The notes below the pieces were generated by a model. That model was not told the DNA's origin. It saw only the letters and a program-made list of their open reading frames with translations, and made no database searches. Made by a program: the position numbers and the translations under genes. A stretch of 64,000 bases of DNA from assembly GCA_039621445.1 (NCBI GenBank), contig CP154954.1, positions 47,285,847-47,349,846 on the forward strand, written 5' to 3'. This document shows positions 12,039 to 64,000 of this stretch, piece after piece. Position 1 is the first letter of the stretch; every line of letters starts with the position of its first letter. Source of the DNA: Euglena gracilis. Lineage: Eukaryota.

Positions 12039-12083
12039 CTGTTCATCAGCCCAGAGGTCCGTGCCCTCGGACCTCGGGCTCCC

Positions 12084-15000: not shown

Positions 15001-15976
15001 GTTGGGCTTCTTGGAAAGAAGTGGTAAGTGCGGCAAAATGCTCAACCGCGACAAAGTTACCGATTTCCGGCATTTTGGGGGTGGCATTTTGCGCTTGTAA
15101 CTGCTGCTGCAATTGCAGTAGCATGGTTGAACAGGATTCCAATTGGGCAAAAAGATGGCTCATACCATCCTGCACATGCAGAAACTTGGAATCATTCCGC
15201 GTTTCCGCTTCATGCAGCATTTCGCTGATTTGTTGGAAATTTTGTGGAAGTTGGATGCGCAAAATACTGTCAACACTTTCTCGAAAATGCTGAAGGTCTT
15301 TCCCCGCATTTTCAAAATTGTGTTGGCAATATTTGCCGATTTCCTGCAAATAATTCCAGCAACATTCCAGTTTGGTGTTGACAACCCTTTGATTGTCCTC
15401 ATCAAACTGCAAAACTTTGTTGAGCATGGTTGCGCATTCCGCAACGCATTGGTGGACATGCAAAATTTGCTTGCTAAGCGGGTGATCCGCTGGGAGTTGA
15501 CCGAGAATTCGGTAAACATCACCGGGGGTGAGGTTATCCCTCAAATCTTCCTCATAGTCCTCCACAATGGAAACGGCACCAGACACTTCCGCCCACCTCA
15601 GCCCCATCTCTGGGTTCCATGGCAATGCAGGGAAAACCGCAGCTTCCGCGGGTAATCCCGGCAAAGCGTGAAATGGTGTGGGGGGTGGTAATTGAGGGGG
15701 GGGTTGGAAAAAACACGGTGTTTCCACCGAGTTGCACTCCAAAAGGCCCACCGGTGCTTCCACCGGGGATCTTTTGGGTGTGAACAGAGCAAAGGGCAAA
15801 TACCCCTCACTTTGTTCATGGGTAACATGAGTAACCAAGTGTGAGGGTGCAAGGGGTTCATCCCCTCGCCGCATCAATGATGGGTGAATCGGGATGGAGG
15901 AAGGCATTTTGCCACCTACATCCCGCACAATCAATGACAATGATGATGAAGAGGGTTCATTACCCCCATGCAACAT
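12084..15976 (-). CDS. gag: Gag-like polyprotein of element A (~1,300 aa)
   Basis: Long coiled-coil-like N-terminal region, capsid-like PQWDGDPTTWRQFFRDWEYY, two CCHC knuckles (CFFCNKSGHMSREC, CSLCGSKDHHASKC) and an RS-rich region. A 1-nt deletion just before the conserved TAG (12084-12086) shifts the ORF-track end to 12029. Confidence 0.9.
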
Positions 15977-16402
15977 AAAGGCGTTTCGCCTTTTGACAAT
16001 GACAAATGAGTCAAATTGCCTTCTTCTTGCTTGGGGGGTCGGGAATTGGAACTTGTTTCATTCAAACCGTTCCAATCCCCGCAATCTTCATCACAATTGC
16101 TCAATGAACTCATCAACAAGTCATAATCAAATTTGGGGTTGGGGCTTGTGCTCTGCATCTTTTGAGATGGGTAAAAAGGCAAAAACCCAAAAATTCACAC
16201 AAATAAGCAGAGAAACAGGGACCAGAAAGGTTGTATCGGCGATTACCGAACAGAGCCTTCTGAGACCTGTATCCTTGCTTAAAGGTTGGCTAGGGGCCAG
16301 GAACAGTACTTTCACCGTGTTTCACGGCTCAGTACGATCCTCACCACCAGTCAACCACAGAGTTTCTCTGTGTGGAACGTCTGTGTAGGATCGTTGCCTA
16401 AA

Positions 16403-19458: not shown

Positions 19459-22400
19459 TTACCTGCCTTTATCGGCAGGACGTTCGCGGACCTCACGCCA
19501 GTAGTCGTGTTGGGGGTCCCCTAATGGGTCCTCAACCAACTCCAGTTGGCGTGGGGAACGCGGCGGAGCTGATTCACTCCGGATGGTGTTGAGCTCCGGA
19601 TCGTTGACATCAAAGGAAGGGGTCTCCCAGTCCTTGATCCAATTATCCGGCAGCTTCTCCCTGGTACGTTCAGCATGATGCTGAAGATACCGTCGGAGCT
19701 GCTCCCAGAAAATTCTGGGCAGCATCACCGGCCAGATGATGTAATTCATCCGGGGGTGATTCGCAGGCACCTGCGGGGGCATCCCCGGGGTCTGCTTGAA
19801 GTTGATGTCATACATCCACCTCGCTGTCCGAGCTCTTGCGGTATGGGGCCGTAATACAGCCGCCAACCAACCTCTGAAGTCCACCAAATCGTGTTCTTCA
19901 GGAGGCCACAGTGGTAAGGCGTATCCGCCATGTTGACGCTTGGAGAACAGGGGGTAAACCTGTGTCTCCCAGTCGCAATCAGTCCAGAGGTAAGGCATTC
20001 TTACCTTGGCATGTTCCTCAACGGCGAGGCGCATTGCCCCAGCGTCCATCTGGAACTCACGGGCCATTCCCGTGTGGCGGTAGCTTTCTACCTTTTTGAA
20101 GTCGGAGTGCTTCAGGCGTCCTTCCACCTGCTTGTACTCCTTCTTCCACTTCTCCAGTGTCTCCCAGTGCTGGGGGACAATGGTGGTGACTGCTCCATCA
20201 GCAGTCTGCACGAACGTGCCTCCTATACAGTTGATGCACAAGGCTGGGATATCCCTGTCGTGAGCATTCTCACTGTAGGAGTAGTTCAAGCTGTGCTTCC
20301 AGGCGTTCAGGCACTCGCCACATACGAGCGCCACACAGTTCGGCACATATGCCCTGTGATGGAACCACGAGGATTGCACCTGCCGCTTGCACACATGCAC
20401 AAGCGGTTGGTTATGCCGCACATGGTGGCATACGGTGCACGTCCAGGCAAAGGACGTGCCGTGCTGGAAATACAACACGCAGTCCTCGCCAAAGTACTGT
20501 GCCAGTACTCTGGGTGAGCGCCTGTTCCAGAATGTCCAGGTATGTTCCGGGGCATAGTGGAAAGGTTCTCCTCGGACGAAGAGGGGCTGAATCCATCGAT
20601 TCAGTGACCCTGTCTGGTGCCTAATAGCTGCCAGTTTCTTCGTCCTCTCTTCCACGGTGCCTAGTCTGGTCAGGATATCCTGGGTCCAGAGCTGGGCATC
20701 CGCAGACACAGGAGGTGAAGCAGGTTCATCCTGCTCCTCATCCGTCGATCCGGCGGAAGATTGGGCCTGTCGACCACGAGCCTTACCTTTCGGTTTGCTC
20801 TGGCCGTACCCGGACGATGCAACGGCCGAATAGTCGTGCATTGTCGTAGGGCCTTTCGGCTGTCCGCCAGTCTGACCTCCAGCGCCACCTTTCGGTGGTG
20901 GTTTCCCATCACCGCCTTTGGAAGGGGGCTTACAGGGTGCAGCACCCGGTTTGCCTCCTTTCGGCTTCGCACTCCCGGAATCAAGAGACGACGCCTGCGG
21001 CTTACTCCTGGTATCAGGAGCCGATGGTGCCGGAGAAGACGTTTGCCGTCTGGGCGAAGCGGGCATACTGACCGCTGGGTCGCGCATGACGCTCCGAGGG
21101 GTCGGCACTCGTTCCTGGGGTTGTTCAGCAGGCCGTCGCCGAGCAGGTTCATCCTGTCCGACGAGGCGTGGCACTGTGGTCGTCACCGGAATCGGTGCTT
21201 CCACAGGCGCTGGCACTCCCAGAAACTCTGCCATTGTCCTCGGGACGGCAGGGACCCTGCGCGGTGTCGGTGGTCGTGGGGGTATCTCCTCCATTTCCAT
21301 TTCGACATCCGGTCTAGGAAGTTGATCCTCCACAACCGCTGACGCAGGTGCTACGGGAGGTTGATCCTCCGGTGTAGCCGGTGCGACAGATGTCTCTGTT
21401 GGCTGGGGTTCATCCCCTGATGGTGGTTGCACTGCTGCCGGAGACGGGGGTGTGGGGACACCGACATCTGGTGTCTCCACGACCTCAGCGGCGGAGCTTG
21501 ACGCTACGCCTCCACCTCGTGGCGTTAGTGCAGCAGCCACGGCAGTAATGCCAGTGACCACGGCGCCGAGCACACGGCCTCCTAACGAGGTGCGTGCTGT
21601 GGGAGTGGCAGGTTCTTCGAGGATATCCTCGACGACCATACCAGTCACCTCGGCTGGAGGCTCAGCCGTTGGAACAGGCGTAGCATCCACAGGTATATCC
21701 CCTGCGGGTGCTGTGTCTGGCCTAGGCTGTGCCGGAGCATGCAGAGCAGCGTAGAGGATATCCTCCACGTTCTCACCTTCCTCCTCAGGAAGTTCCTGGT
21801 CTCCACCTACCGGTGGACAGACGTGAGCCGTCGCGGGGGCCGGGGAAACCGATCGTTCCCCTGCCGCTCGCGGGGCAGAGACGAATGATACAGCCGTTCC
21901 TGTCGGAGACGGCGGCGCTGCCTCCAGTATGGTGACGGAGGGGCTGCGGTCGCGTTCCTCCCGCCGCGGAATCGCAGTGGTGGAAGCGACTGACGCCTCA
22001 CGTCTCCTTCGCGCCAGAGGTTCATCCTCTGGGGCGATGAAGGCGCGCAGATCCTCGGGCGAACGAGGGTCGTCGGGGTGCCGCCAGCCTGTAAAAGGCC
22101 AGCGTACTGCTACTGGCGCTGTTGGGCCAGGGTGGCGGCCATGATGGCTGCACCCAGGCGATGGCAGGCCTGTTCGGGCCCAGGAAGCCGCGGTAACGCG
22201 TGTCCTCCCAGACCTCGAAAAAGCCCTCCTCGAACTCCTGAACGCATGCCAGAATCGGCATACGCTGGTCGAGGATGGCCTTCGGGTGAGACATCAGCGG
22301 AAGGAATACCTCCTGGTCGAGGGTACCGCCAAACTGTCGCCGCAAATGTTCCTCCAGGCTGATATCAGCCAGGTGCCAGTTGGGGCGCAGGTGGCCGAGA

Positions 22401-25147: not shown

Positions 25148-28100
25148 TTAGACAGTGTTTATGTTTATGTCTATGTTATTGCGCTTGTTGCACAGCTTCC
25201 AATCCTGTTGGACATATCCAACAAAACTGGATGCTGGCTCCCAAGTGTCCTCCTCTGGCCCATACCCATTCCAGCGAACTTTCCAGTAGTGCTCACCCCT
25301 GTCGACCTTGTGGTCTATTATCTTATCGCCCACAAAGTCGTCCGTTTCAGGTAATCTGGAACGGGGCTTGAAATATAGGCAGGGGATAGCTTTTCCGTCT
25401 GGGGGGCTTAGGTACGGTTTGAAGTCGTCCATATGGACGTCCTCAATCCCGTTGGGCAAGGCAACTTTATATCGCCCGCTACTACCTAACCTCTCCAAAA
25501 TTTCGCATGGGCCGAGCAAAAGAGGATCTAGCTTGGAAGATTGCATGCGGGTGCGGTTATTCCGTACCCACACGCGGTCACCTGGACTATACACAGGTGT
25601 GTTGAAGTTCTGCAAAAACGATGTCCGTTTGTTGGAATGAATTTCTGTGATACGTGATTGGACTGCAGAGCGGAGTGATTCCACGTCTGCAAACCACGTT
25701 TCACAGCTGACGCTACTTCGGGCGGATCTCTCCGAGGAGATATCCCCTATGGCCGGAGGGTCAGGTCCGAAAACAATTTTGTATGGTGAGTGTGGTAATA
25801 CCAACCCTGGCAAGGTATTGATGTAAAATAAACACCAATGAAGAACGGATAACCAATTCTTACCCGAGTCCGCCAGTGAAAGGCGAAGCATATTGACAAC
25901 GGATTTCACGGCTGCCTCGGCTCTACCATTGCCTTTCGGGCGGTATATAATGGAAAAATGCTGCTCAATGCCGAGTAAACCGCACAAAGTTGTGAAAAAC
26001 CGCGAAGAGATCAAGTGATCTTGATCACTCACGATTTCGTTCGGTAAACCCATTAAGCAGATGCATTTCTCCAGGAATATGGATGCCAAAATTTGGGCTG
26101 TCAACCCTGCTTTCCGGCATGGAATGGCTACTATGTACCCACTCAGCCGACAGACGACAACAAAAACGTAATCGTAAATTTGGTCATCTGATCCTTTGCA
26201 AGGTTCAAGTTCGAGAAAATCCATGCAGAGGGACGTAAAAATGTCTGGTGGTACGGGGAAAACGTCCATCGTACCAGGGGGGGTACCTCTGCGCGGTTTC
26301 ACAGCCTGACAAATTTGGCACCGTTGCGAAATTCGCAAACAGCGCGAATATAAATCTTTTTCACTCAGGGTTGTGCAATATCTGCGACCCACTAGTGAAA
26401 GAAGTTTGGGGGCCCCAGGGTGACCATGGTTGTGATAGCTCAAAATCACATCATCAACCAGGTCTTGGGGTATACAATATTTATAACCAGAATCATTCCG
26501 GAAAATAAGCCGCAATGGTGATAGAGAATAATTCTCTATGGATTCACCATTACGAAGTCTATTCACAATGGTACTATATACCGGGTCACGCGAATAATCC
26601 CATTCGCGGAAAAATAGGGGGGTAGGAGTTTCCGTACGCGTAATGCGACGGGGTCCGGCAGTGCGTCCACGCCGGCGCCTTCCACGCAATGGTGAAATGG
26701 CAATGCTGCGATACACCCGGCAAACGGGTAGTGAATCGAGCATGTTGTCCGCAGCGTCGGATCGACGTGCGAACTGGCCAGCCTCATGGCTGCCATGAAA
26801 AGTCGCATCACCCTCATCCGGGTTCCCAGGATAATACCAGGGGGCTCGGCTGAGAGGATCCGCAACTTTTTGCGTATGACCTGGGGTATAAACTACCACC
26901 AGGTTAAACTGGCTCAAGAACTCATGCCATCGGCATCTTCTGCCAACTGATGACATGGCCTTGTTCAGGTCCTCGGTATACCAGTGTTGAAGGCTTTCAT
27001 GATCCGTCAACACTAGTATCTGGACCAAGCTGCTGGCTATCCAGCTGCGGAACTTCTGGAGAATTAGCACAATGGCATATGTCTCCTTTTCGCGAATGCT
27101 CCATTTAACCTGTCCTTTCCCGCTGTCGCCCTGTAGCTTCCTGCTGAAGAAAGCCACAGGTCGGAGTTCATTCGCCGCATTATGCTGGCTAAGAACCCCG
27201 CCAACAGCGTAATCGCTGCTGTCGACCTCCAGGACATACGGTTTGTATGGATCCGCGATATCGAGAACCACGTTCTCGAGGAGCAAGTCCTTGATTTTAT
27301 TCAAGGCCTCGCACATTTGGTCATCCCAAATGACTTTTGCGTTATCGGGTGTCCGATTTTTGAGTTGTCGGGTTAGGGGTACCGCGATTTTCGCGAAATC
27401 TTTCATGTAAATCGCGTAATATTGGGCTAATCCCAAAAATCCTTTTAAATGCGTTAAGGTCTTAATGACCTCAGGAGTCCATTTCTTAATGGCCTCCATC
27501 TTACTGGGTGCGGCTTTACGCTGCCCGTTGCTCAGGATGTGTCCGCAAAACTTAATAATTTTGCGAAACAGGTGCATTTTGGAACCCTTCACAAAAAGCA
27601 CATGCTTTTGGAACGCGGATAATACCGCGCGCACATCGCGATAATGCGGGTCGAGGATATCCTCGCCCGATTTCGCGGATGGCGGTTGGGTTCCCACCAG
27701 TACATCATCGATGTACACCAGAGCAAACGGTAAATCGCGCAAAACCCACTGGATCATGCGTTGAAACATGGCTGGGCCATTCTTAACACCCATGGGGAGT
27801 ACCGTCCATTGGTACACACCCTTGGATGTCACGAATGCCGTGTACGGTTGCGAATCAGGATGCAAATGCATCTGATGGAAACCGTCTTCCAGATCAAAGA
27901 TTGACCACAACCGGTTATCCGATTGTTTTGTGATCAAATCCTCGATCAGCGGTAACGGGAAGGGGTCATCCTTCGTTTGGGAGTTCAGGTACCGGTAATC
28001 CAGCACCAGTCTCCACTTCTTCTGACCAGACTGGTCAGCGGGTTTGGGCACCACAAAAGCTTGTGATGTCCACTCGCTCTTGGAAGGGATAATCCACTTC

Positions 28101-30230
28101 CGCTGGATGAGCTTCTCAATCATCTCGTTGAGAGCCTGTTCGCGTTCACCCGAGCAACGGAAGAATTTCCGGTGCATAGGTTTAGCGCCATCCTTGAGCT
28201 CGATTTTGCAAACACCGAACGGACCGCGAATCGCGGGGTCGATGTCGCAGGCGTAAACTGGGTTATCCAGTACACCATGGAATTCGCGAGCAATTCGCGA
28301 ACAATAATCAGCAGACTTGGGATGTTGGTCCGCACTCTCAATGACCGCAGAAATCTGCGTTGAGGGTGTGGCATCCCCATCCGTACCAAGGTATCTTGGC
28401 ACACGCAAATCGGATATTCCGAATGCGTCGAAGAAACAAACGCGAAAAATGATTTCTTTGACAGGTGGTAATAATATACCACAAAAATCCTCAAATAGTG
28501 GTACATCAGCGGGTAAATCCCACCAATGAAAACACACATAGGATAGTTGGTGAAACCAATCCGCATTCGGATTGACCGGTATGAGGAGAGCTCCTCGCGC
28601 TTCATCGCGGAGGATTTTCTCCACCACATCCGGGATAAGTTTTGGGGGAGGGTGCATCCATAGCACCGTATCACCCCAAAATTTAAGGAATGCGTTGGTA
28701 TGTCGCGACCAATATCGCGACAAGCGCGCATGCGCTTTTGATGAGAACGCATCAATTTCCAACGGCAAATCGAAGGAATCAGCCAAAGCCGCGATTTTGG
28801 AGAACCATTCCTCCAAAATACGGTATTGACCAAAATTAAATGCGTTCCATACGCGCATCGCGTAGGTGTCGACCTGGTTCGCGGGTTGAAGAGCGGTAAC
28901 GCAATTCAGGGATCCGGAAACATAGGTCAAGGGTGTGTCATCCACACTCCCAAGGGGCATTCCCAAGGGTTGATGGGTTGGATGGGTGCATACCCAGTCC
29001 ATATCATGCCAGATGGAGGTGGGGGAGGTGTGTGACACGGATTTCGCGGTCCCAAACAACAAGGCAATACCTCGTTGTTGGAGCACTTGATGTACGGTCG
29101 CGCATTGCGATCCGCAACCAAGTGTATGGGTGCGCGAAATCGGGATTAGTGTTGGTGTTTGGACTAAACATCCACAATCGAAATCTGGCTGGGCGGAAAT
29201 TCTCCTACAGTGCACACATTGGAAGGAAGTGTCGGAGTAGTGGTCCTGGTCGCGCATGTTGGTCTGGTGGGGGTGTGTGTAAAAGTTGGGATGCGCTTTT
29301 GTAGCTGCTGGGGGGTGTACAGATGTATCTGAAAGCGATACATCTGGTGGAAAACGGGGTATTAGTGCAGCTGGGCGACTACTCGACACCGTAATTACTT
29401 CAGGCCTTTGGGCTTTCGTCTTGTAACCCAGTGGAACGAGGGGGGTACCGCTACTCGCTTGCCCTGCCTCATGGGGAACGGAAGTTGGTGTGTCAATGGG
29501 CAGGGGGTGAACTTTCTCGGTACACCCGGTGTGGAAAACGTTGGTTGGTGTGGTTGGTAACGGGGTAAAAGTTTTCGAAAACGGTGTGGAAAAATTGGTG
29601 GCTATCGCGGTTGACGCCACAGGTGATGAGGGTTTGGGGGGCAATGAGGAGAATGGTGATGTGCGCAAACCGTGGGAGTGGCAATCCACTACCAGCCGGT
29701 GCTGACGTAAAAAGGGGTATCCCAGAATTACGTCAGAACCATGGATTCCGGATTCATATCCCCAGGTATCCGGAAAATTTTGCGGTTGGGGGGGGGGTGT
29801 GAGTGGTGCTTGGGGATGAGGGGTAGGACAATGTCCAAAAAGCATCCCAAGTCACCACCGCACATGGGGTGTTGTCAGCCGTCGTAATTTTGATCGGCTT
29901 CTTGGCTTTCACCAAGAGGGGGGTTGGTATCAACCCGAACCGAAAAAGTAGTGCAATGCGACAACCAGTGTCAATGAGAATTTTGACTTTTGTACAAAAA
30001 TTTTGGATTTTGATTTCCGCTTGGACCAAAAGTTCCATGGGGGGTAAGCAAAGTGAAGGGTCTGGCGAAAATACGTTTTCTTGCCAGCTTTCCCATGAAC
30101 CCTTTCCTACTTTGCACAACATTCCGAGCGGAAAGTTGGAGTGGGGGGTGGGGGACCCGAAAATTTTCCGGGTATCGACCGGGAAGGCAGATGGGCAGGG
30201 GGAGCAGGGTTGATCAGGTCCTACCTCCAT
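25148..30230 (-). CDS. pol: Pol of family B: protease, Dam-like MTase, RT (YIDD), RNase H, integrase, chromodomain
   Basis: ORF 29754-30230 (DTG protease) plus 1565-aa ORF 25148-29845, separated by one frameshift. LPMGVKNGPAMFQ and YIDD in RT; integrase CMDF, VSDQ, GRAE; chromodomain at the C-terminus. Confidence 0.95.
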
Positions 30231-30275
30231 CTGTTCATCAGCCCAGAGGTCCGTGCCCTCGGACCTCGGGCTCCC

Positions 30276-31856
30276 CTACTCCAGGTCCGAACCGGCCGAA
30301 TAGCCGGCTATGGGCCTTTTAGAGGTGTAAACGGATTTCAACGTGCGCACCGCCATGCGGGCCTCGTCGAAATCGGTATCCGTGGTCTCATCCCCCTCCC
30401 TGCCCGAAGCCGGGGTGTCATCCTCCAAACAAGATATCTTGAAACCGACTTTATGGCGGTTGGAGGAGTGACCCTTGTCACCGCGATTCATACCGCGATG
30501 ACGTTGGCCAGGGCGGGGAGAACGAGAACGCGGACATTTGGATGAGTGGTGATCACTCGATCCACAAAGCGAACACCGAGATTTGTGTCGCGAATCTGGA
30601 TAACGGGGGGATCGGTTTCCCGATTTCCCGTCAAACCGTCGTGGTGACCGGGTATCCCGTCGACCATGACCGGTGTATCGGGGTTTTCCCGATGAGGATC
30701 GCGAAGAAGATGATCCGCTTCGCGAACGCGATCGCGATGTCTCGCGATGAGAATCACGCTTCTTGGCCGGGGCACCGGGTGACCTACCCCGAGGGGTACC
30801 GTGTTTCCGCTCATCGCGGAACGGGATCCGGGGGCTAATACCACCGGAACGGGGACCCGATGACCGTGAATTGCCCGATTGGCGTGAAAACGCGGAGGAA
30901 CCCGAACCTCGTGATGAGGTCGAGCCTCGCGGACTCTGAATACGCTTTCGCGCTTCAGGATTAGGACATTCCCGAGACATATGTCCCGATTTGTTGCACA
31001 AAAAGCACACTTTATCCGTGGCTTGGTCCGAAGAACGCGGGTATCGCGTTTTCGATCCCGTGGTGGGTGAAGCGGGTGAAACCGGTGATTTTTGCAATGC
31101 GTTCACCGAACCAGCCGGTAATCCAGCGGTTGGGTGTGCGGTATACGCGGATTGAATCTGACCAAGAAGCTGTGATAGCTTCAGTTGCTTGGAAACATAA
31201 TTCCAGCGTTGGTCAAGAGTCATTGCATTACCCGCCAACTCCTCACGATGGATATCCTTGATGAGGCTAGGCGTGAAATGCATGAGAACAGCGTCAAACT
31301 GTTCGCGCATTTGCTTTTCACTGAGTTCATCCACTTCAGCGGCAAGTCCTAACCATTTGGCATACCAAAGGTCAATGGACTTCCATTTGCGATCGGGTGG
31401 GGCGCATTGCCGCCACTTGGTCTCCAGGGTAATCCTAGCGACCAAACTTGAACTGGTGGAAGCGTATTGCTCCACCAGGTCATCAAAGGAAACGCGGTAG
31501 CGAATGACGAGTTGTCGCGCGCGCTCCTTCTCATCCCTAGGGAGGCAATCGATGAATTCCATCTTGATCACCTCCGGGTTTGTGTCCTGGGTTGGCCCTT
31601 TCAATGCCCAGTAGTACTCCCAGTCCCGGAAAAACTGTCTCCATGTGGTTGGATCACCATCCCATTGGGGTTTCACCTTATTCGCGATTGCGATGGTGCC
31701 CTTGAAGTCTTTCTGAAAAACCCGTTGGCCCTCGGTGGTATTCCGTGGATTCGGGCCCGGGTACGCTCGAGCACCAAGCGTATCCTTTCCGGATTCTTGT
31801 CGGAATCGCGAAATTTCTGGTGAAGGTGAATCCTGGTACCGGAAATCCGGTCGCAA
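30276..31856 (-). CDS. gag: Gag of family B (5'-truncated)
   Basis: 526-aa ORF closely similar to the C-terminal part of element A Gag, with two CCHC knuckles. Ends GSDLE-TAG. Confidence 0.9.
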   Translation of the reverse strand: MRPDFRYQDSPSPEISRFRQESGKDTLGARAYPGPNPRNTTEGQRVFQKDFKGTIAIANKVKPQWDGDPTTWRQFFRDWEYYWALKGPTQDTNPEVIKMEFIDCLPRDEKERARQLVIRYRVSFDDLVEQYASTSSSLVARITLETKWRQCAPPDRKWKSIDLWYAKWLGLAAEVDELSEKQMREQFDAVLMHFTPSLIKDIHREELAGNAMTLDQRWNYVSKQLKLSQLLGQIQSAYTAHPTAGLPAGSVNALQKSPVSPASPTTGSKTRYPRSSDQATDKVCFLCNKSGHMSRECPNPEARKRIQSPRGSTSSRGSGSSAFSRQSGNSRSSGPRSGGISPRIPFRDERKHGTPRGRSPGAPAKKRDSHRETSRSRSRSGSSSSRSSSGKPRYTGHGRRDTRSPRRFDGKSGNRSPRYPDSRHKSRCSLCGSSDHHSSKCPRSRSPRPGQRHRGMNRGDKGHSSNRHKVGFKISCLEDDTPASGREGDETTDTDFDEARMAVRTLKSVYTSKRPIAGYSAGSDLE

Positions 31857-31914
31857 ACCCTGTTGGTCACCGTTAATAGGATAAGGCTAAGGTTAAGTAT
31901 ATATAAGTATATGT

Positions 31915-55939: not shown

Positions 55940-58696
55940 ATTAGGGGTGGTGAGGACTACCTCTGACCTTTTCTGCTTCTCGGTGGGCTAACGAGGTAGG
56001 GAGTTTTTTCTCATCTTCGAAACCCGCCATCTTACTCCTGCGGCTTGAGGGCCCATTTAAACGGACAGCTCCAAGCCACAAGACCCCAGTGAGGTCCTGC
56101 TCTTCTTTCCGGCTGTTGTCTTTGTGTTTTGGTGTTGGTTTGGTGTGTATTACTGCTGCTCTTTGCCGGAGTAGGCGGATCATAATCGTCCTTTTTGCAC
56201 GGAGCTGCAACCAATTGTTCAAGCCGATCATGCAATTTACACAACTGCAAGACGAGACCGACAGAGAGGCCTTCGAAGCGGCGCGGAGCAGCCTTTTCTT
56301 ACAAGAATCGCTAACAGCAGCCCTCTTACGAGATGCGGACGCTACCACCGTGATGGCCACGATTGGGTCCGGTCAGAAGTGAACTGGGGCCGGTTGGGGT
56401 ACAACCCGCTGTGCCCTTGCAGTACGGAAGCTCACTGGAGTGGCTATGCGGAGTCTACACTGCAACCTTACTTAGCGGCATCCCTTTACAGCTTGGCCCT
56501 TACGAAGAACGTTTCGATACTTTCACTGGAGCTGGGCGAGAAGGCGTCGGACGCGGCCTTCAAGCTGTCCGAGAAGTGGACAACGGCGACGACGACAACG
56601 ACGGAGATGGATCGCGACGAGGAGGCAGCGCGCGCGGCAGAGGAAGCCCAGGACTTCCCCTGGCAAACGGCCGAGGAGGCACCGCCGGGGGACATGGAGA
56701 GGATATGGGCACAGGTACAGTCTGGGGACTTACGTATGGAAGTTCGAAGTTTACTGGAACAGATACCAGCCTGGCAGGCGGAAGAAAATAACCACCGTCA
56801 AGATGGTAAGAGTGGGTATGACCGCACTCTGCGCACAGTACAGCAGAAGCTCTTGAATATCTTACGTATCTTGGCAGCGCTGCACTGCACCTTTCAAGGA
56901 CCCCCTGAGGATGTATTGGGTTTGAGCCAACAGCTGTTTGCATATGTGGCTGCCTGTGAGGGGGACATTGTCAAGGAGAGGAAGAGGAGGAGCATCCCTC
57001 AACTATACAACCAGGAAATGGCCTATTCACCCCTGAAGACATCAAAATGGCCAAAGCTCAAGTTGGCATCAACAAAGAGGGTATCAGCCCCCCTTCATGG
57101 GTGAGTTCCCCAAGTGGCATTTTCCCACCCCCACAGGTGGAAAAGGGTGGAAATTCAAGCAATGGCCAACAGTTTGGCAAGCGAGACCATGGAGGTCTAA
57201 CCCCAAAGGGAAAGGCAAGTCCAAAGTAGGAAAATGGTTCGCCCACCACCTTGCCAGGAAGTATTGCTCCTTCCTTTTCAGATCAGAACTCCTCAAGTTC
57301 CAAAAGGACATTGTGTCCTCCAGAGTTGGGCATTGTGCCAGAAACTCAACCATCCCTGAGGGGCAAAAGCCAAGACATTTGCAGGCTGTGGGAAGCTGCA
57401 TGCTTGAGATCTGTGGAGCAGATCGCAGAGGTGCTGCTGCTGACAGAGGAGCACTTTTTGGGGTTGCCTTTGTTTCAGAGACTTCAGACCCAGTTGCCAT
57501 GGTGGCAGAAAGTTGCCCCCCCAAGGTGTTTCAACTCATTACACAGGGGGTAACCCCCCCTTGGGAGACACCCCCCTCCCTCAGCACATTTTCTATACCA
57601 AAATCAGAGGTGGAAATTCAAAAGGCAAAAAATATTTTACAAGACAATTTCCGAGCAGGAGCCATAAAACCAGTCCCCTCGGAGGGTACCCAACACATCA
57701 TCCCTTGGTTTGTAATCTCCAAAAAGGAGCCTCAGGGAGAAAAACATCGTTTAATAAGCGACTGTCGCCAACTAAACCAGCACTTTTCCGCCCTCCCTTT
57801 CAAACTGGACAACATCCAGGTCATCTTCAGGCACCTAAAGAAAGGACAGTGGGGAGCTAAAGTAGACTTAAAGGACGCCGACTTTCATTTAATGTTGAAT
57901 CCAACCCTGAGGCCCTACATGAGGATGACTCTGGAGAAACATGCTTGGAATTCCAGGCAGCTTGTTTTGGTTTAAATGTGCTGCCAGAAAAATTCATAGC
58001 CTCATCAAGTGCCTGGAAAAACGTTGGAAGGCCAAAGGCCTTTTATGCTTTGTGTACCTGGACGACATCTTCTGCTGGGGGACAGCCAGAAGCAAGTCAG
58101 CAATCACTTGGCCATCATGCTGGCAGATTTACTGCAGGGGGGTTTAAAAATCAACAGCAAGAAATCGATCTTTCAACCCACCCAAAATCTCCCACATTTG
58201 GGATTCCACCTCAACCTGGCACATGGAAAGATACAGTTGGGGGCAGAAAAACTAAATCTGGTCCGGAGGGAACTTGGAAAATTGGTCACACACCAGTCCC
58301 TCAGTTGCAGAAATATGGCCTCAATTTTGGGGTGCATAAGAAGCTTCCTGGTGGGGCTGCCCTTCCTCAGGGCATTTACAGACACTTTGGTAGGTTTTGT
58401 CAAACTACAAGAAAATTTTAGCTGGGATCATTAAGTTCCAATCTCAGAGGAGGTGAAATCTCAACTGACAGATGTACGAGAAATTCTGCCGACCTGGGGG
58501 GGGGGGGACCCTTCCCAAGCCCAGCAAACAGACACCTGGAGTCAGACAGTTCAAATTTTGGTTGGGGGGGCCTAGACCTACAAGCTTGCACCCAGTTGCA
58601 GGAATTTTTGCGAAAAGATTCTCACTTACATATAAATGTAAAAGAATTGAACGCAGCCATCTCCACTGTAAGGTCTTTGGCCAGAAAAGGGGTGTC
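55940..58696 (+). mobile_element. Decayed DIRS-type retrotransposon (ORF1, RT, partial RNase H), 3'-truncated
   Basis: RT motifs HRLISDCRQLN, FKLDN, KVDLKDADFH, ACFGL and VYLDDI. RNase H motifs SDSSNFGWGG and HINVKEL are characteristic of DIRS. Multiple frameshifts; 5' boundary approximate; no tyrosine recombinase in the window. Confidence 0.8.
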
Positions 58697-59050
58697 GACT
58701 GTCGGGGGCGTCCGACAGTCAAAAATGGTAAGGCGGAAGCTTTTGAAAACACGGAATTTTCATTCCGCGCAAGGACGCACATTCAATAGGAAAAGCCTAA
58801 TTTGAGGTTCTAATTTAACACAATTTGCTTCCGCAGACCTTTGTGGGTTTTTTTCCCTTTGGCTGTCAATCAAATATTGAATTGGAGAATTGAATTCAAG
58901 ACAAGGTGCATTGTTTGGAAGAATTGTCAATTTCAGGTCCTTCTTCCCACTTTCACGGTGTGTGCGTGTTTCTGTTGCCTTTTACCACCATCCATTGCAC
59001 CAAAACACCCACCCTGACCATTTCCAGTGTTTTTGCATACTTAAGAAAGG

Positions 59051-62000
59051 GTGGGTGAAATGGCTTCGTGGGGACTGAAATTTGGGATTACATTTTTAAA
59101 GGAACGGAATTTTGACTTTGTGCAAGTTTTCAGGGAAAAAGCAAATTCGATCCTACGCACACCCCTCTGGTCGGGGGGTACACCAGCGGGCGAAACGGGG
59201 GGTGGCCTGAGCCCTCCACCACCCGGAAAAACACTGGCCCCGGGCCAGGGAACGGCAGCCCCAGGGGTGGGTGTCGGGGACGAGGCAGCCGGCTGGGGGG
59301 CTGGGGTCTCGGGTCCGACGCTCGCAGGGGGGGCGCCGGGTGTGAACATGGTTAGCAGAGGTGGCTTCACTGACCCTGTCAGTGAAGAGTTTTCAGAACC
59401 CCTGAACATGGTACGCAGAGGTTGCTTCACTGACTCTGTCAGTGAAGAGTTTTTTGATTCGGTTGATGACAAACCTGAACATGATTGGCAGAGGTGGATT
59501 CACTGACTTCGTCAGTGAAAAGTTTTCGAATTCCCTGAACATGACAAGCAGAGAATTTTTTGCCAACCCTGTCGACAAAACTTTTTTCAGCCCAGAAAAC
59601 ACGGACGAATTTGCTGGCACAGCCAGCAGAAATCTTGCTGAAAAGTTTGACATGGTCACAGAGGTTTCAGAGTCCAAAAAGTTTGCTGAGTCTGTGAATG
59701 TGGAATCACAGAATTTTTCAGGTCAGCCACCAGATTTTTCGGAGAGCAGCCCCCGAAATCAAAATGTCAGAACTGCAGAATCTGTGGAATCTGAGGGGTT
59801 GCTTCGAACAATTGGCTGGTTGGCTGATTGGAATCATTCAGGTTTTTCTGCAGGGTCTGCCAATCAATCTTCAATCTCAAATCAATCAATTCCCAGATCC
59901 CTGCCATTTTTCATTCACAGGTTTTACACAATCACAGGTTGCCTCAGGTGATAATTCAGAGTTTTCGTCTGAAAAATCAGGGGATAGCCCTGTAAACTGT
60001 TTCCCCGTAAGGATGATAACTGCAAAGGGGGAAATTTCACAGCCAGAAGGGGAAAATCAGCTGGTTCAGTGGGCAGAATCCCCCCCGTCGTATCAAAGTG
60101 ACTGTGAAACGGAGGGGGAGGGTGCGCAAAACCCAGATCGGTTGAGAGAAATGGAGAATTTTTTGATTGCTGCAGGTTGGGTACCACCCAGAAATCAGGG
60201 TTTGGAACAAAATCTGCCAGATTTTTCTGCGAATTTCAGTTTTCTGATGCAAACCCCCCAGCTGGACAGCCAGTTTGGAAATCAGTGTCCTGATTCTGGG
60301 ACACAAATTCCACAGATCGAGGGGGGTGAACCTGTGCTTTTGTTGGAGGACAGATTTTCAGTGGACCGTAGATTAACAGCCAACAAGGGGATGGTAATTT
60401 TGACAGAGCCAGACCCTGAAAATTTAACATCAACAATTTTAACAGCTGAATCTTCCAATCTGGCCATAGGTGGGCCAGCCGGGCTGTTAAATCATGCAGG
60501 GTCTAACATGGAAATGAGGGGGGATGAGGAAATGGAACCAGAATTGCCTGTTTTTCAGCCCCCTATTTTTGGACCACAGCCCCCCGAATCAAATTGTCAG
60601 ATGGGGGGTGATGATTTTGACTCATGGGACCAATGGGCATATGGGGTGGATTGTTATTTACAGGAATTGAGCCGAAGCATAACTAACTGGGAGAGCATAA
60701 TTCCCCCCCAGGTTGTGATTGAGAATCGGCTGGAAATTTTTGAGAAGAATTTGGCTGAAAAAAATGCTCGAGCACAGACAGAACTTTTGCATTTCATCCA
60801 TGAAAATTTGGAGAAACAAACTGCTGAAATGTGCAGCCAGTTTGAGCACGAAAAGCAAAAAAGTCAGGAGCGAATTCAGCAATCAGTCAGCCAATTTATT
60901 TTACGATGTCAGGAAGGGGGGAGTGCTGTGGAAAACATTGCAAACTGCCACAAACAACTTTTGGGGATTGAAGTTCAAAGGCAGATCGAAGGGAAATTTC
61001 ATGATTTTGAGAAAAAATTACGGGATTTTCTGGGTGGTGAGCTGGCACAACTTGAGAGCCGTGGAAACAATGTCCAAAACAAATTGTTTGCACCAGGTGG
61101 GTTGGTCGAGCAAGTTGGAATTTGTTTACATTCTGTCGAGGGAATAAAGTCAGATTTTCAGAAAGAAATTTTGGCAGTTCGGCTAGGAAATCGTGAGCTA
61201 TGCTCTGGGGTGGACAGAAAATTTGCTGAAATCGCTGCTGGGCTGAAAATGGTGGGGGAGGAATCAAAATCAAGTTTTGGGACATTGGCCCAGGAAATTC
61301 AGCAGCGATTTGAAGCAATTAAAAACGAGAGCAAAGCTCTGGGGGGCAGGATCGCAGCAGTTGAGAAATTTCTGGGAAGCCAGGAGGTGCCTTGGGATAA
61401 GGTGGTTGAAATGCTGGGAAAATCAGAAGCAACAATTCAATTGGAAGTTCGGAGGGAAATGGCAGCCCAGGTCAGAAAAATGATGGAAATTATGATGGTG
61501 CAAATGATGGATGAAAAGCTGAGGCAAACCCAAAAGGAAGAACATTTTGAAAAATTGCAAACTGACATTGAAAATCGAGTGAAACAGCAATTTTTCACAG
61601 TTTTGATGAACATGCAGACAGATTTTCAGCGTGAAAAGAGTCAACGGGAGGGTTTGCAAAAACTGTGTCAAACTTTGCAGACTCGTTTGGATTTCATGGA
61701 GGGGAGGGTTCAGGAAATTTCAGCCGAAAAAACACACAGCAAATTGACCCCAAGGCACCTGAAGTGGCCCAGCCCAAGACAATAAATCAGCCGAATTCTG
61801 GGATTTTTGGCATTAAGGGGGTGTCACCGGCTCAATCATCTGGGATTTTTGGGATTAAGGGGGTGACCCCAATGATGCCATGTGAAATCTGGGATGTAGA
61901 CCTGGGCGGGTGTAGACCATCAAATAGTTCACAGGGGGGTGCAATTGCAATAAATCAGGTCAGTGGCATTTGTGCCATTGGGGGGGCACCCCAGCGACCC

Positions 62001-63393
62001 CCAGTCATAAGCGTTGGAAACCCAGCATTGCAGCATGTGATGAGAAATTTGATTGCACCCAAATTTTCAGGGAAATCACAGGATTGGCAGCAATTTTCAG
62101 AGGATTGGGAAGCATTTTTACGGAAACTGACTTCTGGAGGGGGGGAGGTCAGTGATGATTTGAAAGTTGCTCTGTTGGAGGATTGTCTTGACGAAACGAG
62201 CAAAAAAATTCTGAAGCTCCATCTCAAGGAAGGGGGGATCAATTTTAATGCCGGGTGGGGTCACCTGGAAATGACATTTTCGCAGAATCAGGAATCTGGG
62301 GCAAGGCAAAATTGGCAGCAGGTGAGCCTTTTTAATATGGGCAAAGTAGCCCTTGAGCACTGGCTTGAATTTCAGGCAAATTTCAAGATGGCCAAGTGCA
62401 AGGTTAAGGATGCCGGGGAGGGGGAAGCAAAACGGCTTTTGTTGCAGAAACTTCCCTCATTCATCCTAAAATGGGTTTTAGATGAGGAGGAAAGGAGGCT
62501 GAATAATCAGCCAACTTTACGCCTAAAGGTGCCAGGGAATAGGAATTCAGAAATGGTTTCGGAAAGCTTGGGGAGAATACTTGGGAAAAGACCCACAAAA
62601 GTGTCGGAAATTCACGAGGAGGAATTTGAAATCATTTTCCCTGACATTTCTACCTATGAAAAAGTCAAAAGTTTTCATGGCAAAGAGTTTGACGATTCAA
62701 ACGTTTTGTTTCAGGTTCAGGAAATTGAACCGATTTTGACCACCGAGGACATTTTCAACCTCGTGAAAACAAAATTGGCACTCAGAAACAAACATGACGC
62801 CTTACAAAGTTCTGTTTCATCCCCAGGCTATCAAGGGGTTTAGGCGTTCAAGGTCGGTGGGTGCTGAAAATCGAGGGGGGAGGCAATCGGGGAGTCGGAA
62901 GAGTTCACCTGGGTCAACCCCAGGTAGGGCAACGACACCTCCCCCAGCCAGAAGCAAATCACAAATCAGCGAAACAGCAAAACCTGATCAATATGTTGCG
63001 GTTTCATCTTCAAATGTGCAGCCATCAAGCAATTCTTTAAGGCTTTCAAGGGTGGCGAACCCACCCAATGTGCAAAGACCGGTGGTGTGGGGGGCACAAT
63101 GGAACCCACCCCCCTCACAACCAACAATGCCGTATGTTGCTAGACAAGCCCCGTGGAACAGAAACAATTTTCAGCCGTATGGCAAGGGCAGCCAATGGAA
63201 AGGTGGGAATAATTCCCAGGGACATGGGGCAAATAACTCCCAATGGTATGGGGGTAACCAACAGGGATACAAGGGGAAGGGTGGTAAGGGAAGGGGGAGA
63301 GGCAAAGGATTTGACCAGAATTTCGGTGCCAAAGGGGGGAAGGGCAATAACAATAACCCAACGCCAACGCTGGCCCACCCTATTCGTCATTAG
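59051..63393 (+). pseudogene. Gag-like polyprotein of element D, frameshifted
   Basis: Overlapping ORFs 59051-59506, 59442-59951, 59698-61785, 61665-62843 and 62794-63393. Confidence 0.65.
59343..59560. repeat. ~60-bp tandem repeat with internal palindrome TTCACTGAC-N3-GTCAGTGAA (3 full copies, 1 partial)
   Basis: Direct inspection. Confidence 0.85.
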
Positions 63394-64000
63394 GGACGCC
63401 GGGGTCATGTTTTTGAGGGGTTTACATCCTCGGGCATCGAAAACCCCCAAAGTATTTTGCATAACCCAACCACATCTTCACATGGAGAATATTACCGTGG
63501 TGGAGAATGTGTATCTTTGTCTTCCAATCCCTTCACCTCAGGTTCAAAATCAGGCAATGAAGAGTGTGCAATATCGAAGACGAGCAATGGTGCCAATTCA
63601 ATGATTTCAATGAATTCATCCTCGACAACCAACTCGAGAAGACAAGTGGCCTTGAGCCTTGAGGCCTTGAGTGGCCAATGGCAGCCCGTGTCGAGGAAGG
63701 GCAAACCGTGGACCAGGTGTGCAAGCCAGGAGAGTGCACGGCCCAGGTTCAACAATTATTATGGTTGTTTGAGCAAAAGACCATCCATCAAAGGTGTGGG
63801 AAGTTGGAAAGTTCCCAAGGCGTTGGATTTGTTTTCGGGAAAAGGGTCTGTTGGGAGGTGTTTGGGGGAAAACGGGTACCAGGTGGTATCCTTGGATGTG
63901 AACCCAAAATTTCACCCAACCCACGTTACGGATATTCTGGAGTGGAATTATCGAAAATACCCCCGTGGATATTTTCAAGTCATAACGGCAAGTGTGCCTT
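63394..64000 (+). CDS. C5-cytosine DNA methyltransferase domain, N-terminal part (open to window end)
   Basis: Frame open from 63394. From 63817 it reads KALDLFSGKGSVGRCLGENGYQVVSLDVNPKFHPTHVTDILEWNYRKYPRGYFQVITASVP: motif I FxGxG, motif II D, motif III DI and the start of motif IV. The next codon begins with T, which is compatible with the catalytic Cys. Confidence 0.82.

What the first reader, a model, noticed from the sequence alone, without database searches (positions are those of the whole stretch)
63394..64000. Retroelement carrying a C5-cytosine DNA methyltransferase right after gag (absent from the ORF track)
Seen: the frame after the gag-like TAG stays open to the window end and encodes DLFSGKGSVG...SLD...TDILEW...VITASVP. 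Established: this matches C5-MTase motifs I-IV, and DNMT-carrying retrotransposons are reported in Symbiodiniaceae dinoflagellates and charophytes. Inference: this may be an independent euglenid case; I know of no description of one. The short domain resembles viral or bacterial-type MTases rather than DNMT1/3, and the element may methylate its own cDNA.
Basis: partly seen in the sequence, partly recalled or inferred. Interest (0 to 1): 0.85.

Follow-up and report, generated by a model that had tools for sequence, protein, structure and literature searches.

The report
Retrotransposon pol starting with cytosine methyltransferase
The window ends inside the first 60 residues of a cytosine-5 DNA methyltransferase that opens the pol gene of a repeated gypsy-type jumping gene, a kind of element already reported for Euglena in a 2026 preprint.

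Summary
After the TAG at 63391-63393 the same frame stays open for 202 codons to the window end and closes with LDLFSGKGSVG...SLD...TDILEW...VITASVP. On its own the fragment is not diagnostic, because Pfam gives no PF00145 hit.

A database protein (P0003) is identical over the last 39 residues and continues ASVP-C-TEYS...WIENP...QKPTRIWG. It passes PF00145 at 30.1 bits against a cut-off of 22. A model of its cluster mate P0004 (pLDDT 91) matches DNMT3A/B, M.HhaI and DNMT1 at Z 14-15.

All five closest long relatives read DNMT-DAM-protease-RT-RNase H-integrase-chromodomain. Public runs hold many diverged copies. In most of these copies, 59698-63393 is one 1230-codon ORF ending at that TAG.

So the identification is right, but the novelty is not. 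A May 2026 bioRxiv preprint already describes Euglena gracilis LTR elements with DNMT, DAM and chromodomain ("EpiLTRs"). Neither the organism nor the downstream pol could be checked in the window itself. The closest viral structure is a 218-aa giant-virus methyltransferase.

The parts
59698..61785 (+). First part of the element's ORF1: a 695-codon frame rich in predicted coiled coil, with no Pfam family at curated level.
   Evidence: It fuses in frame with the next ORF when the 2 nt at 61732 that many laid contigs lack are left out.
61732..61733 (+). Two bases that this copy has and many other copies lack. They cause a frameshift within ORF1 of this copy.
   Evidence: table 4. 'Left out 2' at 61732 carries depth 11873 of 34794 in X1, 303 of 969 in X2, 194 of 194 in X7 and 11.8 of 11.8 in X15. 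Frame check.
61635..62843 (+). Gag-like middle part of ORF1.
   Evidence: Its position is directly upstream of pol. A language-model lead points to PNMA, Retrotrans_gag and Ty3_capsid clusters at scores 0.82-0.87, which is a lead only. There is no Pfam hit.
62835..62835 (+). One extra G in a GGGG run relative to most copies. It is the second frameshift within ORF1 of this copy.
   Evidence: table 4. 'Left out 1' at 62835 carries depth 11195 of 26854 in X1, 478 of 555 in X2, 164 of 164 in X7 and 22 of 38 in X15. Frame check.
62767..63393 (+). Gly/Lys/Arg/Asn-rich C-terminal part of ORF1, ending in TAG.
   Evidence: No zinc knuckle and no Pfam family.
63391..63393 (+). In-frame TAG between ORF1 (gag) and the pol frame.
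   Evidence: With the two indels removed it is the only stop in 1433 codons from 59698 to the window end. An X15 contig bridges 63275-63570 with 3 differences (record 14).
63394..63822 (+). 143-codon linker at the start of the pol frame. It is Ser/Thr/Asn-rich and has no detectable family.
   Evidence: The closest relatives also have 12-165 residues ahead of the methyltransferase in the same ORF.
63823..63999 (+). N-terminal 59 residues of the C5 cytosine methyltransferase domain: motif I DLFSGKGS, motif II SLD, motif III TDILEW and the start of motif IV (ASVP). It is cut by the window end just before the catalytic Cys.
   Evidence: 51% identity to P0002 residues 1-59, BLASTP E 3e-15. P0003 is identical over 39 aa and continues with C-TEYS and IENP. 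PF00145 at 30.1 bits in P0003.

Best explanation
The open frame is the start of the pol gene of a Ty3/gypsy-type (chromovirus-like) LTR retrotransposon. The first enzymatic module of that pol is a short C5 cytosine methyltransferase of about 200 residues.

In the intact family form, one ORF1 of 1230 codons (coiled-coil region, gag-like region, basic tail) ends at a TAG, and pol follows in the same frame. Pol would therefore be made by occasional read-through of that stop (inferred).

Beyond the window end the methyltransferase should continue with the catalytic Pro-Cys and Glu-Asn-Pro motifs. It should be followed by a Dam-like adenine methyltransferase, protease, reverse transcriptase, RNase H, integrase and chromodomain. 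This is inferred from an identical-overlap protein and from the closest long relatives. It is the 'EpiLTR' layout reported for Euglena gracilis.

The enzyme most likely puts 5-methylcytosine on DNA, either the element's own cDNA or chromatin around insertions. It would act alongside the element's 6mA module and chromodomain, so that the element engages with a host genome that uses both marks (inferred, not tested).

This particular copy carries two frameshifts in ORF1 relative to most copies, so it is probably not autonomous.
For: Shown by tools:
- The frame and motifs are present.
- P0003 is identical over the last 39 residues, continues ASVP-CTEYS...WWIENP...YQKPTRIWG, and passes PF00145 at 30.1 bits against a cut-off of 22, E 4e-7.
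- Its cluster mate P0004 also passes, at 31.3 bits.
- An AlphaFold model of P0004 built with 85 sequences has pLDDT 91 and pTM 0.85.
- All Foldseek PDB rows shown are DNMT3A/B/C, with E about 1e-9 to 5e-8.
- VIA-align gives Z 15.1 for DNMT3A, 14.3 for M.HhaI and 14.0 for DNMT1. Of the 50 entries listed, 49 are named DNMT3, DNMT1 or M.HhaI structures and one is a prophage 'putative DNA modification methyltransferase'.
- A profile of the family against PDB sequences gives 31 of 35 hits named cytosine-5 methyltransferases, the best being DNMT1 at E 1e-4.
- Catalytic residues are kept across 85 family members: Cys78 in 82 of 83, Glu117 in 85 of 85, Asn118 in 77 of 85, Pro119 in 83 of 85 and Arg153 in 75 of 84.

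Retroelement context:
- Of 96 longer relatives at E<=1e-10, the precomputed Pfam column shows RT in 33, Dam in 21 and chromo in 8 (counted by eye from the table).
- All 5 of the 5 closest long relatives (59-63% identity) read DNMT, Dam, protease, RT, RNase H, then integrase parts. Four of them also have the integrase core and a chromodomain; P0155 is cut after RT and P0160 after the integrase zinc domain.
- In a tree of 106 domains, P0003 and P0004 fall in a 12-row clade (SH-aLRT 90). Eight of its rows carry Dam; the other two besides P0003 and P0004 are short or unannotated.
- Metagenome locus L005 reads DNMT-PR-RT-RNase H followed by IN-chromo.

Copy number:
- 935, 316, 138 and 35 contig pieces of four runs lie on 61600-64000. 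In X1 they fall at 99+/95-99/90-95% identity as 400/347/188.

ORF1 and the stop:
- With the two indels that many copies show, there is a single stop (the TAG) in 1433 codons.
- 3 of 4 metagenome relatives with upstream sequence also have one in-frame stop ahead of the DNMT frame.
- The window's other chromovirus also has gag, then TAG, then an open frame in the same phase.

Published:
- E. gracilis LTR elements with chromodomain, DAM and DNMT are described in bioRxiv 10.64898/2026.05.21.726589, section 8.
Against: - The window stops before the catalytic Cys. No base of DAM, PR, RT or IN of this element was seen, and no whole genome is held.
- The continuation rests on one 141-aa protein from another contig, identical only at the protein level over 39 residues.
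- The fragment alone fails PF00145.
- The gag label rests on position and a sub-threshold language-model lead. ORFs A-C match none of the 247 proteins stored at that point.
- Contigs of three runs diverge from the window just upstream of the TAG, with loose ends at 63385 and 63390. The gag part and the pol part are therefore not always joined as they are here.
- No read-through-promoting RNA structure was found (z -0.83; pseudoknots were not assessed).
- No LTR could be defined, because the 3' end lies outside the window.
- Enzymatic activity, substrate and expression are untested.
Confidence: 0.8

Rival explanations
1. Chimeric junction. The gag-like ORF1 and the DNMT-pol frame belong to two different elements brought together at the TAG by nested insertion or recombination, so 'DNMT right after gag' is not the native layout.
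For: In one search, table 7, contigs of X1, X2 and X7 match the window from 63385 or 63390 onward but carry unrelated sequence before it. The preprint itself warns of nested insertions and chimeric elements in E. gracilis (section 7).
Against: An X15 contig bridges 63275-63570 with 3 differences (record 14). Both frames are in phase, and the alternative upstream sequences can also be read into the same ...RH-TAG junction (my reading of the loose-end letters). Of 4 relatives with upstream sequence, 3 show the same plan of one in-frame stop. Depth is similar on both sides of the junction (table 2).
Confidence: 0.1
2. It is a methyltransferase of another class: an N6-adenine or N4-cytosine DNA enzyme, or an RNA m5C enzyme of the DNMT2 kind. 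It is not a DNA cytosine-5 enzyme.
For: The only Pfam match of the fragment itself is the D12 N6-adenine family at E 0.034. P0002 alone finds DNMT2 and a tRNA methyltransferase as its only PDB sequence hits, at E 0.32. Substrate was never tested.
Against: P0003 and P0004 have Pro-Cys and Glu-Asn-Pro rather than a DPPY-type motif, and they pass PF00145. The fold matches DNA enzymes bound to DNA at Z 14-15. The D12 match covers only the generic SAM loop.
Confidence: 0.06
3. It is a host gene, or an endogenised giant-virus methyltransferase gene, that happens to lie next to transposon debris.
For: The best viral structural match is a Tetraselmis virus 1 protein at 36% identity. A set of 30 more distant relatives lacks RT and carries DUF5872, DUF5824, DUF5754 or Ulp1 domains.
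Against: The window fragment is 56-69% identical to retroelement-borne members, against the 29-37% that P0004 shows to the RT-less set. It is in phase with ORF1. It is as repeated as the gag part. P0003 and P0004 sit inside the retroelement clade, which is split from the RT-less set by a branch with support 100.
Confidence: 0.04

Closest known systems
Euglena gracilis 'EpiLTR' / DAM-LTR retrotransposons (bioRxiv 10.64898/2026.05.21.726589, May 2026; abstract, sections 7 and 8 and passages read)
   Same: These are LTR retrotransposons that combine a cytosine DNMT, a Dam-like adenine methyltransferase and a chromodomain. All five closest long relatives of the window's domain have DNMT and Dam, and the four that reach the C-terminus also have a chromodomain. 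The window also holds a Dam-chromovirus at 25148-31886(-).
   Different: Neither the window's organism nor sequence identity with the preprint's elements could be checked, because supplements are closed. The passages I read give no domain order, no in-frame TAG, and no mention of the short 200-aa form or of a giant-virus look-alike.
Cymbomonas tetramitiformis EpiLTR (same preprint)
   Same: A chromovirus-like element with DAM and DNMT. The preprint places its DNMT in one clade with the Euglena one.
   Different: There the DNMT is appended at the 3' end of pol. Here it opens pol. A stored relative, P0217, has the domain at residues 1393-1594 of 1600 and branches outside all the other retroelement-borne domains. 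Its organism is unknown.
KnitGypsy-Dnmt3 of Klebsormidium nitens (PMC5890265, section 9 read)
   Same: A DNMT inside the pol ORF of a gypsy-type LTR retrotransposon, with conserved catalytic residues.
   Different: That DNMT is a Dnmt3 derivative of eukaryotic origin. The preprint states that the Euglena DNMT acquisition is distinct from it. It has no Dam module.
SymbioLINE-Dnmt and SymbioDIRS-Dnmt3 of Symbiodinium (PMC5890265, section 6 read)
   Same: Retrotransposon-encoded C5 DNMTs in hundreds of copies. Self-methylation of cDNA was proposed, and de novo CG methylation was shown for retrotransposon DNMTs (abstract).
   Different: The carriers are LINE and DIRS elements rather than Ty3/gypsy, and the DNMT lineages differ.
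Putative cytosine DNA methyltransferase of Tetraselmis virus 1 (UniProt A0A2P0VN45, BFVD model)
   Same: It has the same size (218 aa) and fold. Foldseek gives E 5.8e-21, TM 0.75/0.82, rmsd 2.7 and 36% identity over 220 columns.
   Different: It is a free-standing giant-virus gene and not part of a retroelement. No common descent was tested by a tree.
DNMT3A/B catalytic domain, M.HhaI and DNMT1 (solved structures)
   Same: The catalytic core fold is shared (Z 15.1, 14.3 and 14.0 over about 200 aligned residues), and motifs I, IV, VI and VIII are present.
   Different: Sequence identity is 14-18%. The domain is about 200 aa against 270-330. Where the target-recognition domain would be, there is only a short stretch with conserved Cys141, Cys168, Cys173 and His186.

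Membership tests
C5 cytosine methyltransferase (Pfam PF00145, DNMT fold) | Motif I SAM-binding loop (F-x-G-x-G) | tested here: met
   DLFSGKGS lies at 63826-63849. In the family alignment Gly24 is kept in 60 of 60 and Phe22 in 56 of 58.
C5 cytosine methyltransferase (Pfam PF00145, DNMT fold) | Motif IV Pro-Cys with the catalytic cysteine | tested here: inconclusive
   It is not in the window, which ends at ...ASVP. It is present as ASVP-C-TEYS in P0003, which is identical over the 39-residue overlap. Cys is kept in 82 of 83 family rows.
C5 cytosine methyltransferase (Pfam PF00145, DNMT fold) | Motif VI Glu-Asn-Val/Pro and the motif VIII arginine | tested here: inconclusive
   These lie beyond the window. 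P0003 and P0004 have WIENP and QKPTRIWG. Glu is kept in 85 of 85 rows and Arg153 in 75 of 84.
C5 cytosine methyltransferase (Pfam PF00145, DNMT fold) | Score above Pfam's gathering threshold for PF00145 (22 bits) | tested here: inconclusive
   The window fragment has no PF00145 hit at E<=1. P0003 scores 30.1 bits, P0004 31.3 bits and P0002 24 bits.
C5 cytosine methyltransferase (Pfam PF00145, DNMT fold) | DNMT catalytic fold | tested here: met
   The test was on the model of P0004 (pLDDT 91), not on the window fragment. Z is 15.1 for DNMT3A, 14.3 for M.HhaI and 14.0 for DNMT1.
C5 cytosine methyltransferase (Pfam PF00145, DNMT fold) | Transfers methyl to C5 of cytosine in DNA | not testable with these tools
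   This needs expression and methylation sequencing.
Ty3/gypsy chromovirus-type LTR retrotransposon of the EpiLTR kind (DNMT + DAM + chromodomain) | PR-RT-RNase H-IN pol in that order, in the same element | not testable with these tools
   This lies beyond the window, and no genome is held. It is present in all 5 of the 5 closest long relatives as far as each reaches and in L005.
Ty3/gypsy chromovirus-type LTR retrotransposon of the EpiLTR kind (DNMT + DAM + chromodomain) | Dam-like adenine methyltransferase and a chromodomain in the same polyprotein | not testable with these tools
   This lies beyond the window. Dam follows the DNMT in P0005 and in P0155-P0158 and P0160. A chromodomain is present in P0156-P0158. 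The clade around P0003 and P0004 has 8 Dam-bearing rows of 12.
Ty3/gypsy chromovirus-type LTR retrotransposon of the EpiLTR kind (DNMT + DAM + chromodomain) | Gag upstream of pol | tested here: inconclusive
   A 1230-codon ORF1 ends at the TAG. There is no Pfam gag or zinc-knuckle hit. Atlas gives leads to PNMA, Retrotrans_gag and Ty3_capsid at 0.82-0.87.
Ty3/gypsy chromovirus-type LTR retrotransposon of the EpiLTR kind (DNMT + DAM + chromodomain) | Long terminal repeats and target-site duplication | not testable with these tools
   The 3' end lies outside the window. Self-BLAST of 56000-64000 against the window found only a local tandem repeat at 59343-59553.
Ty3/gypsy chromovirus-type LTR retrotransposon of the EpiLTR kind (DNMT + DAM + chromodomain) | Many dispersed, diverged copies | tested here: met
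   laid 935, 316, 138 and 35 contig pieces from four runs on 61600-64000, spread over the 99+, 95-99 and 90-95% identity classes. The DNMT bins are covered like the gag bins. Within this window the element is single.
Ty3/gypsy chromovirus-type LTR retrotransposon of the EpiLTR kind (DNMT + DAM + chromodomain) | Host is Euglena gracilis, as in the published family | not tested
   Organism names of runs are coded, and I did not try to decode them. Rfam found nothing in the window.

The most novel reading that the evidence does not exclude
The short methyltransferase of about 200 residues, which lacks a target-recognition domain and keeps a conserved Cys-Cys-Cys-His cluster, may be a giant-virus-like module. 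It would have been captured once and then shuffled to at least five positions in gypsy-type pol genes:
- before PR;
- before DAM and PR;
- after DAM;
- between RNase H and IN;
- at the C-terminus.

If so, it forms a retroelement-borne DNMT family far larger and more widespread than the two species reported so far. The representative search found 1105 protein clusters at E<=1e-10.
Probability: 0.3. Interest if true: 0.55.

Novelty: already known. Interest (0 to 1): 0.3.

Why it matters
Retrotransposons that carry their own DNA-modifying enzymes show that mobile elements can write the host's epigenetic marks as well as suffer them. An element with a 5mC writer, a 6mA writer and a chromatin reader in one polyprotein is an extreme case. 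This copy adds anatomical detail to a family reported only in a 2026 preprint:

- The methyltransferase is the first pol module.
- It lies behind a single in-frame TAG that ends a very long ORF1.
- It is a minimal 200-residue enzyme with catalytic residues conserved across relatives.
- Its nearest viral look-alike is a giant-virus protein.

It does not open a new kind of system.

Tried and rejected
- No whole genome is held for this window, so the contig could not be extended.
- Pfam, NCBIfam and PDB sequence searches with the fragment alone gave only generic SAM-loop matches.
- tblastn of the fragment, of ORFs A-C and of P0004/P0005 against the window found no second copy of this DNMT or this ORF1 in the 64 kb.
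- ORFs A-C matched none of the 247 proteins stored at that point.
- The metagenome scan with P0004 returned only 5 loci at 46-51% identity. It did not return the contigs of P0003 or P0004, so no DNA-level extension was obtained.
- Read laying shows that 8, 5, 3 and 2 contigs run over the ends of the laid stretch, but it prints no letters past the window end.
- No RNA holder is listed among the sequencing runs, and the rows marked 'RNA?' are guesses. I draw nothing on expression from this.
- The RNA fold of 63385-63484 after the TAG gave z -0.83, with 39 of 200 shuffles folding as well. This gives no support for a read-through structure, and pseudoknots were not assessed.
- Rfam found no family in the window.
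- Self-BLAST for an LTR found only a local tandem repeat.
- Earlier findings of this scan gave nothing for this sequence or genome.
- A phylogeny against reference DNMT1-6 classes was not possible, because no reference sequences were available from a tool. I cannot confirm or contest the preprint's 'sister to DNMT4'.
- VIA-align cannot separate DNMT3, M.HhaI and DNMT1, which are within 1.1 Z of each other.
- The Atlas search with a far, RT-less relative (P0220) gave only leads at 0.79 to 212-aa phage methylase clusters.
- The preprint's supplements, which hold its DNMT tree and element sequences, are closed. They may already show the domain order and the points listed under the novel case.
- Paper searches found no other paper on euglenid retrotransposon DNMTs. 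I ran no search specific to the in-frame TAG or the Cys/His cluster.

Full report
**What is in the window.** The stop TAG at 63391-63393 ends ORF 62767-63393. The same reading frame then runs open for 202 codons to base 63999. The 143 codons before them are Ser/Thr/Asn-rich and match no family.

Taken alone the fragment is not diagnostic:
- Pfam gives no PF00145 hit at E<=1. The only match is the D12 adenine methylase family at E 0.034, 14.3 bits against a cut-off of 22.
- PDB sequences and NCBIfam give only generic SAM-loop matches.
- No whole genome is held, so the contig could not be extended directly.

**Extension through relatives.**
- A search with the last 76 residues found P0003 (141 aa, E 2.4e-17). 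It is identical to the window over its first 39 residues and goes on ASVP-CTEYSRAK...KLWWIENPRTG...YQKPTRIWG.
- So a Cys does follow SVP and Glu-Asn-Pro is present. P0003 passes PF00145 at 30.1 bits against a cut-off of 22.
- Its cluster mate P0004 (239 aa) holds a whole domain and scores 31.3 bits.
- An exhaustive HMMER search with P0003 found 2119 cluster representatives at E<=1e-3, 1105 at <=1e-10 and 136 at <=1e-30.
- In an 85-sequence alignment the catalytic residues are kept: Cys78 in 82 of 83, Glu117 in 85 of 85, Asn118 in 77 of 85, Pro119 in 83 of 85 and Arg153 in 75 of 84. Cys141 (85 of 85), Cys168 (76 of 80), Cys173 (76 of 78) and His186 (73 of 79) are also kept. They lie where a target-recognition domain would be and may form a metal site.

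**Fold.**
- The AlphaFold model of P0004 has pLDDT 91 and pTM 0.85.
- All Foldseek rows shown against solved structures are DNMT3A/B/C (E about 1e-9 to 5e-8, TM 0.34-0.60 on the query).
- VIA-align gives Z 15.1 for DNMT3A, 14.3 for M.HhaI and 14.0 for DNMT1, which are tied. Of the 50 listed entries, 49 are named DNMT3, DNMT1 or M.HhaI structures and one is a prophage 'putative DNA modification methyltransferase'.
- A family profile against PDB sequences hits 35 chains. Of these, 31 are named cytosine-5 methyltransferases, the best being DNMT1 at E 1e-4.
- In the viral structure library the best match is much closer. It is a 218-aa putative cytosine DNA methyltransferase of Tetraselmis virus 1, with E 5.8e-21, TM 0.75/0.82, rmsd 2.7 and 36% identity.

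**Retroelement context.**
- The first long hit, P0002 (1598 aa, 51% identity over 59 residues, BLASTP E 3e-15), reads methyltransferase-protease-RT-RNase H-integrase-chromodomain.
- Among 96 longer relatives of P0004 at E<=1e-10, the precomputed Pfam column shows RT in 33, Dam (PF05869) in 21 and chromo in 8 (my count from the table).
- All five closest long relatives (59-63% identity to P0004) read DNMT, Dam, protease, RT, RNase H, then integrase parts. P0156, P0157 and P0158 also end in a chromodomain. P0155 is cut after RT and P0160 after the integrase zinc domain.
- The closest representative, P0005 (66% identity to P0003), also has Dam right after the DNMT.
- I built a quick maximum-likelihood tree of 106 domains. 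One partial row, P0208, was dropped, and two further rows shorter than 120 residues had been dropped at extraction. P0003 and P0004 sit in a 12-row clade (SH-aLRT 90, not starred) in which 8 rows carry Dam. The 76 retroelement-type rows are split from 30 RT-less rows by a branch with support 100. The tree is unrooted, and the tool warned that the long branch of P0217 joins that split.
- Other family members show other layouts: Dam-PR-DNMT (P0021), Dam-DNMT-PR (P0037), DNMT between RNase H and integrase (P0010, P0126, P0210), and DNMT at the C-terminus of pol (P0217).

**ORF1, the stop and copy number.**
- Contigs of four public runs were laid on 61600-64000. They gave 935, 316, 138 and 35 pieces; in X1 these fall at 99+/95-99/90-95% identity as 400/347/188. 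This is a repeated family with many variants, and the DNMT bins are covered like the gag bins.
- Many copies lack 2 nt at 61732 and 1 nt at 62835. With those omissions the frame from 59698 is open for 1230 codons to the TAG and then to the window end, giving a single stop in 1433 codons.
- The native plan is therefore one long ORF1 (coiled-coil part, gag-like part, basic tail), then TAG, then pol in phase. This copy has two frameshifts in ORF1.
- The gag label is weak. There is no Pfam hit, and the Atlas gives only leads to PNMA, Retrotrans_gag and Ty3_capsid at 0.82-0.87.
- Of 4 metagenome relatives with upstream sequence, 3 also show a single in-frame stop ahead of the DNMT frame. The fourth has an overlapping upstream ORF in another frame.
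- The window's other chromovirus has gag (zinc knuckle), then TAG, then an open frame in phase.
- Read-through of the stop is my inference. A simple RNA fold after the TAG is unremarkable (z -0.83).
- Against a simple picture, contigs of X1, X2 and X7 diverge from the window just before 63385 and 63390. Some copies therefore carry a different ORF1 end. One X15 contig bridges the junction as in the window.

**What is known.**
- de Mendoza et al. 2018 (PMC5890265; abstract and sections 6 and 9 read) described SymbioLINE-Dnmt, SymbioDIRS-Dnmt3 and KnitGypsy-Dnmt3.
- A May 2026 preprint from the same group is bioRxiv 10.64898/2026.05.21.726589 (abstract, sections 7 and 8 and passages read). [quoted passage not shown] It says their DNMT groups with that of Cymbomonas elements, sister to DNMT4. 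It also says this acquisition is distinct from the dinoflagellate and streptophyte cases.
- The layout of the window's closest relatives is that layout, and the window also holds a Dam-bearing chromovirus at 25148-31886(-).
- I could not name the organism. Run labels are coded, and I did not try to decode them. I also could not compare sequences with the preprint, because its supplements are closed.
- PMC12344493 was seen only as passages. It mentions Euglena DNMT1 and DNMT5 but no retrotransposon DNMT there.

**Verdict.**
This is the N-terminus of a C5 cytosine methyltransferase that opens the pol of a repeated gypsy-type retrotransposon, directly after gag.
- The claim of a first euglenid case does not stand against the 2026 preprint, so I rate the finding already known and of modest interest.
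- These points go beyond the text I could read and need the preprint's supplements or new work to judge: the in-phase TAG, the minimal 200-residue form with a Cys/His cluster, the giant-virus look-alike, and the size and layout diversity of the family in metagenomes.

Noticed in passing
window 25148-31886 (-): A second, largely intact chromovirus-type element. Its gag with a zinc knuckle (30276-31886) ends in TAG and is followed in phase by ORF 29754-30275. Its pol (25148-29851) has RT, RNase H, integrase and a chromodomain, plus a sub-threshold Dam-like stretch (PF05869, E 2.4e-4, residues 354-434) ahead of RT. It has no DNMT.
   Followed up: partly
window 6952-16057 (-): A third gypsy-type element. 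It has a 1342-codon ORF1 with coiled-coil matches and a zinc knuckle (12029-16057), and a broken pol with RT/RNase H at 8250-10047 and integrase, SH3 and chromodomain at 6952-8007. Its long coiled-coil ORF1 resembles the plan of the element under study.
   Followed up: partly
window 59343-59553 (+): About three and a half copies of a 60-nt tandem unit (77-82% alike) lie just upstream of the ORF1 start at 59698. They may be part of the 5' untranslated region or the LTR.
   Followed up: no
window 57941-58147 (+), within 56175-58434: An ORF piece with a YLDD-type reverse-transcriptase motif (FVYLDDIFCWG). It has no Pfam hit at E<=0.1 and no similarity to the gypsy pols. It may be a remnant of a different retroelement class next to the element.
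   Followed up: partly
window 1345-6165 (-) and 19459-22293 (-): Two very long open frames of 1606 and 944 codons have no Pfam family at E<=0.01.
   Followed up: no
P0004 residues 141, 168, 173, 186 (family alignment A1): Cys141, Cys168, Cys173 and His186 are nearly invariant in the short methyltransferase family. They lie where a target-recognition domain would be and may form a zinc site. Their positions in the model were not examined.
   Followed up: no
P0217 (1600 aa); P0010, P0126, P0210: The same methyltransferase module sits at other places in gypsy-type pols. It is at the very C-terminus in P0217 (residues 1393-1594). It lies after the RNase H region or ahead of integrase in P0010, P0126 and P0210.
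   Followed up: partly
P0218-P0247 (30 proteins): This is a tight group of RT-less proteins of 424-1145 aa, 29-37% identical to P0004. They have the methyltransferase near the N-terminus and C-terminal DUF5872, DUF5824, DUF5754 or Ulp1-protease domains. They form the sister side of the tree. Their biological source is unknown; an Atlas lead points to phage methylases.
   Followed up: partly
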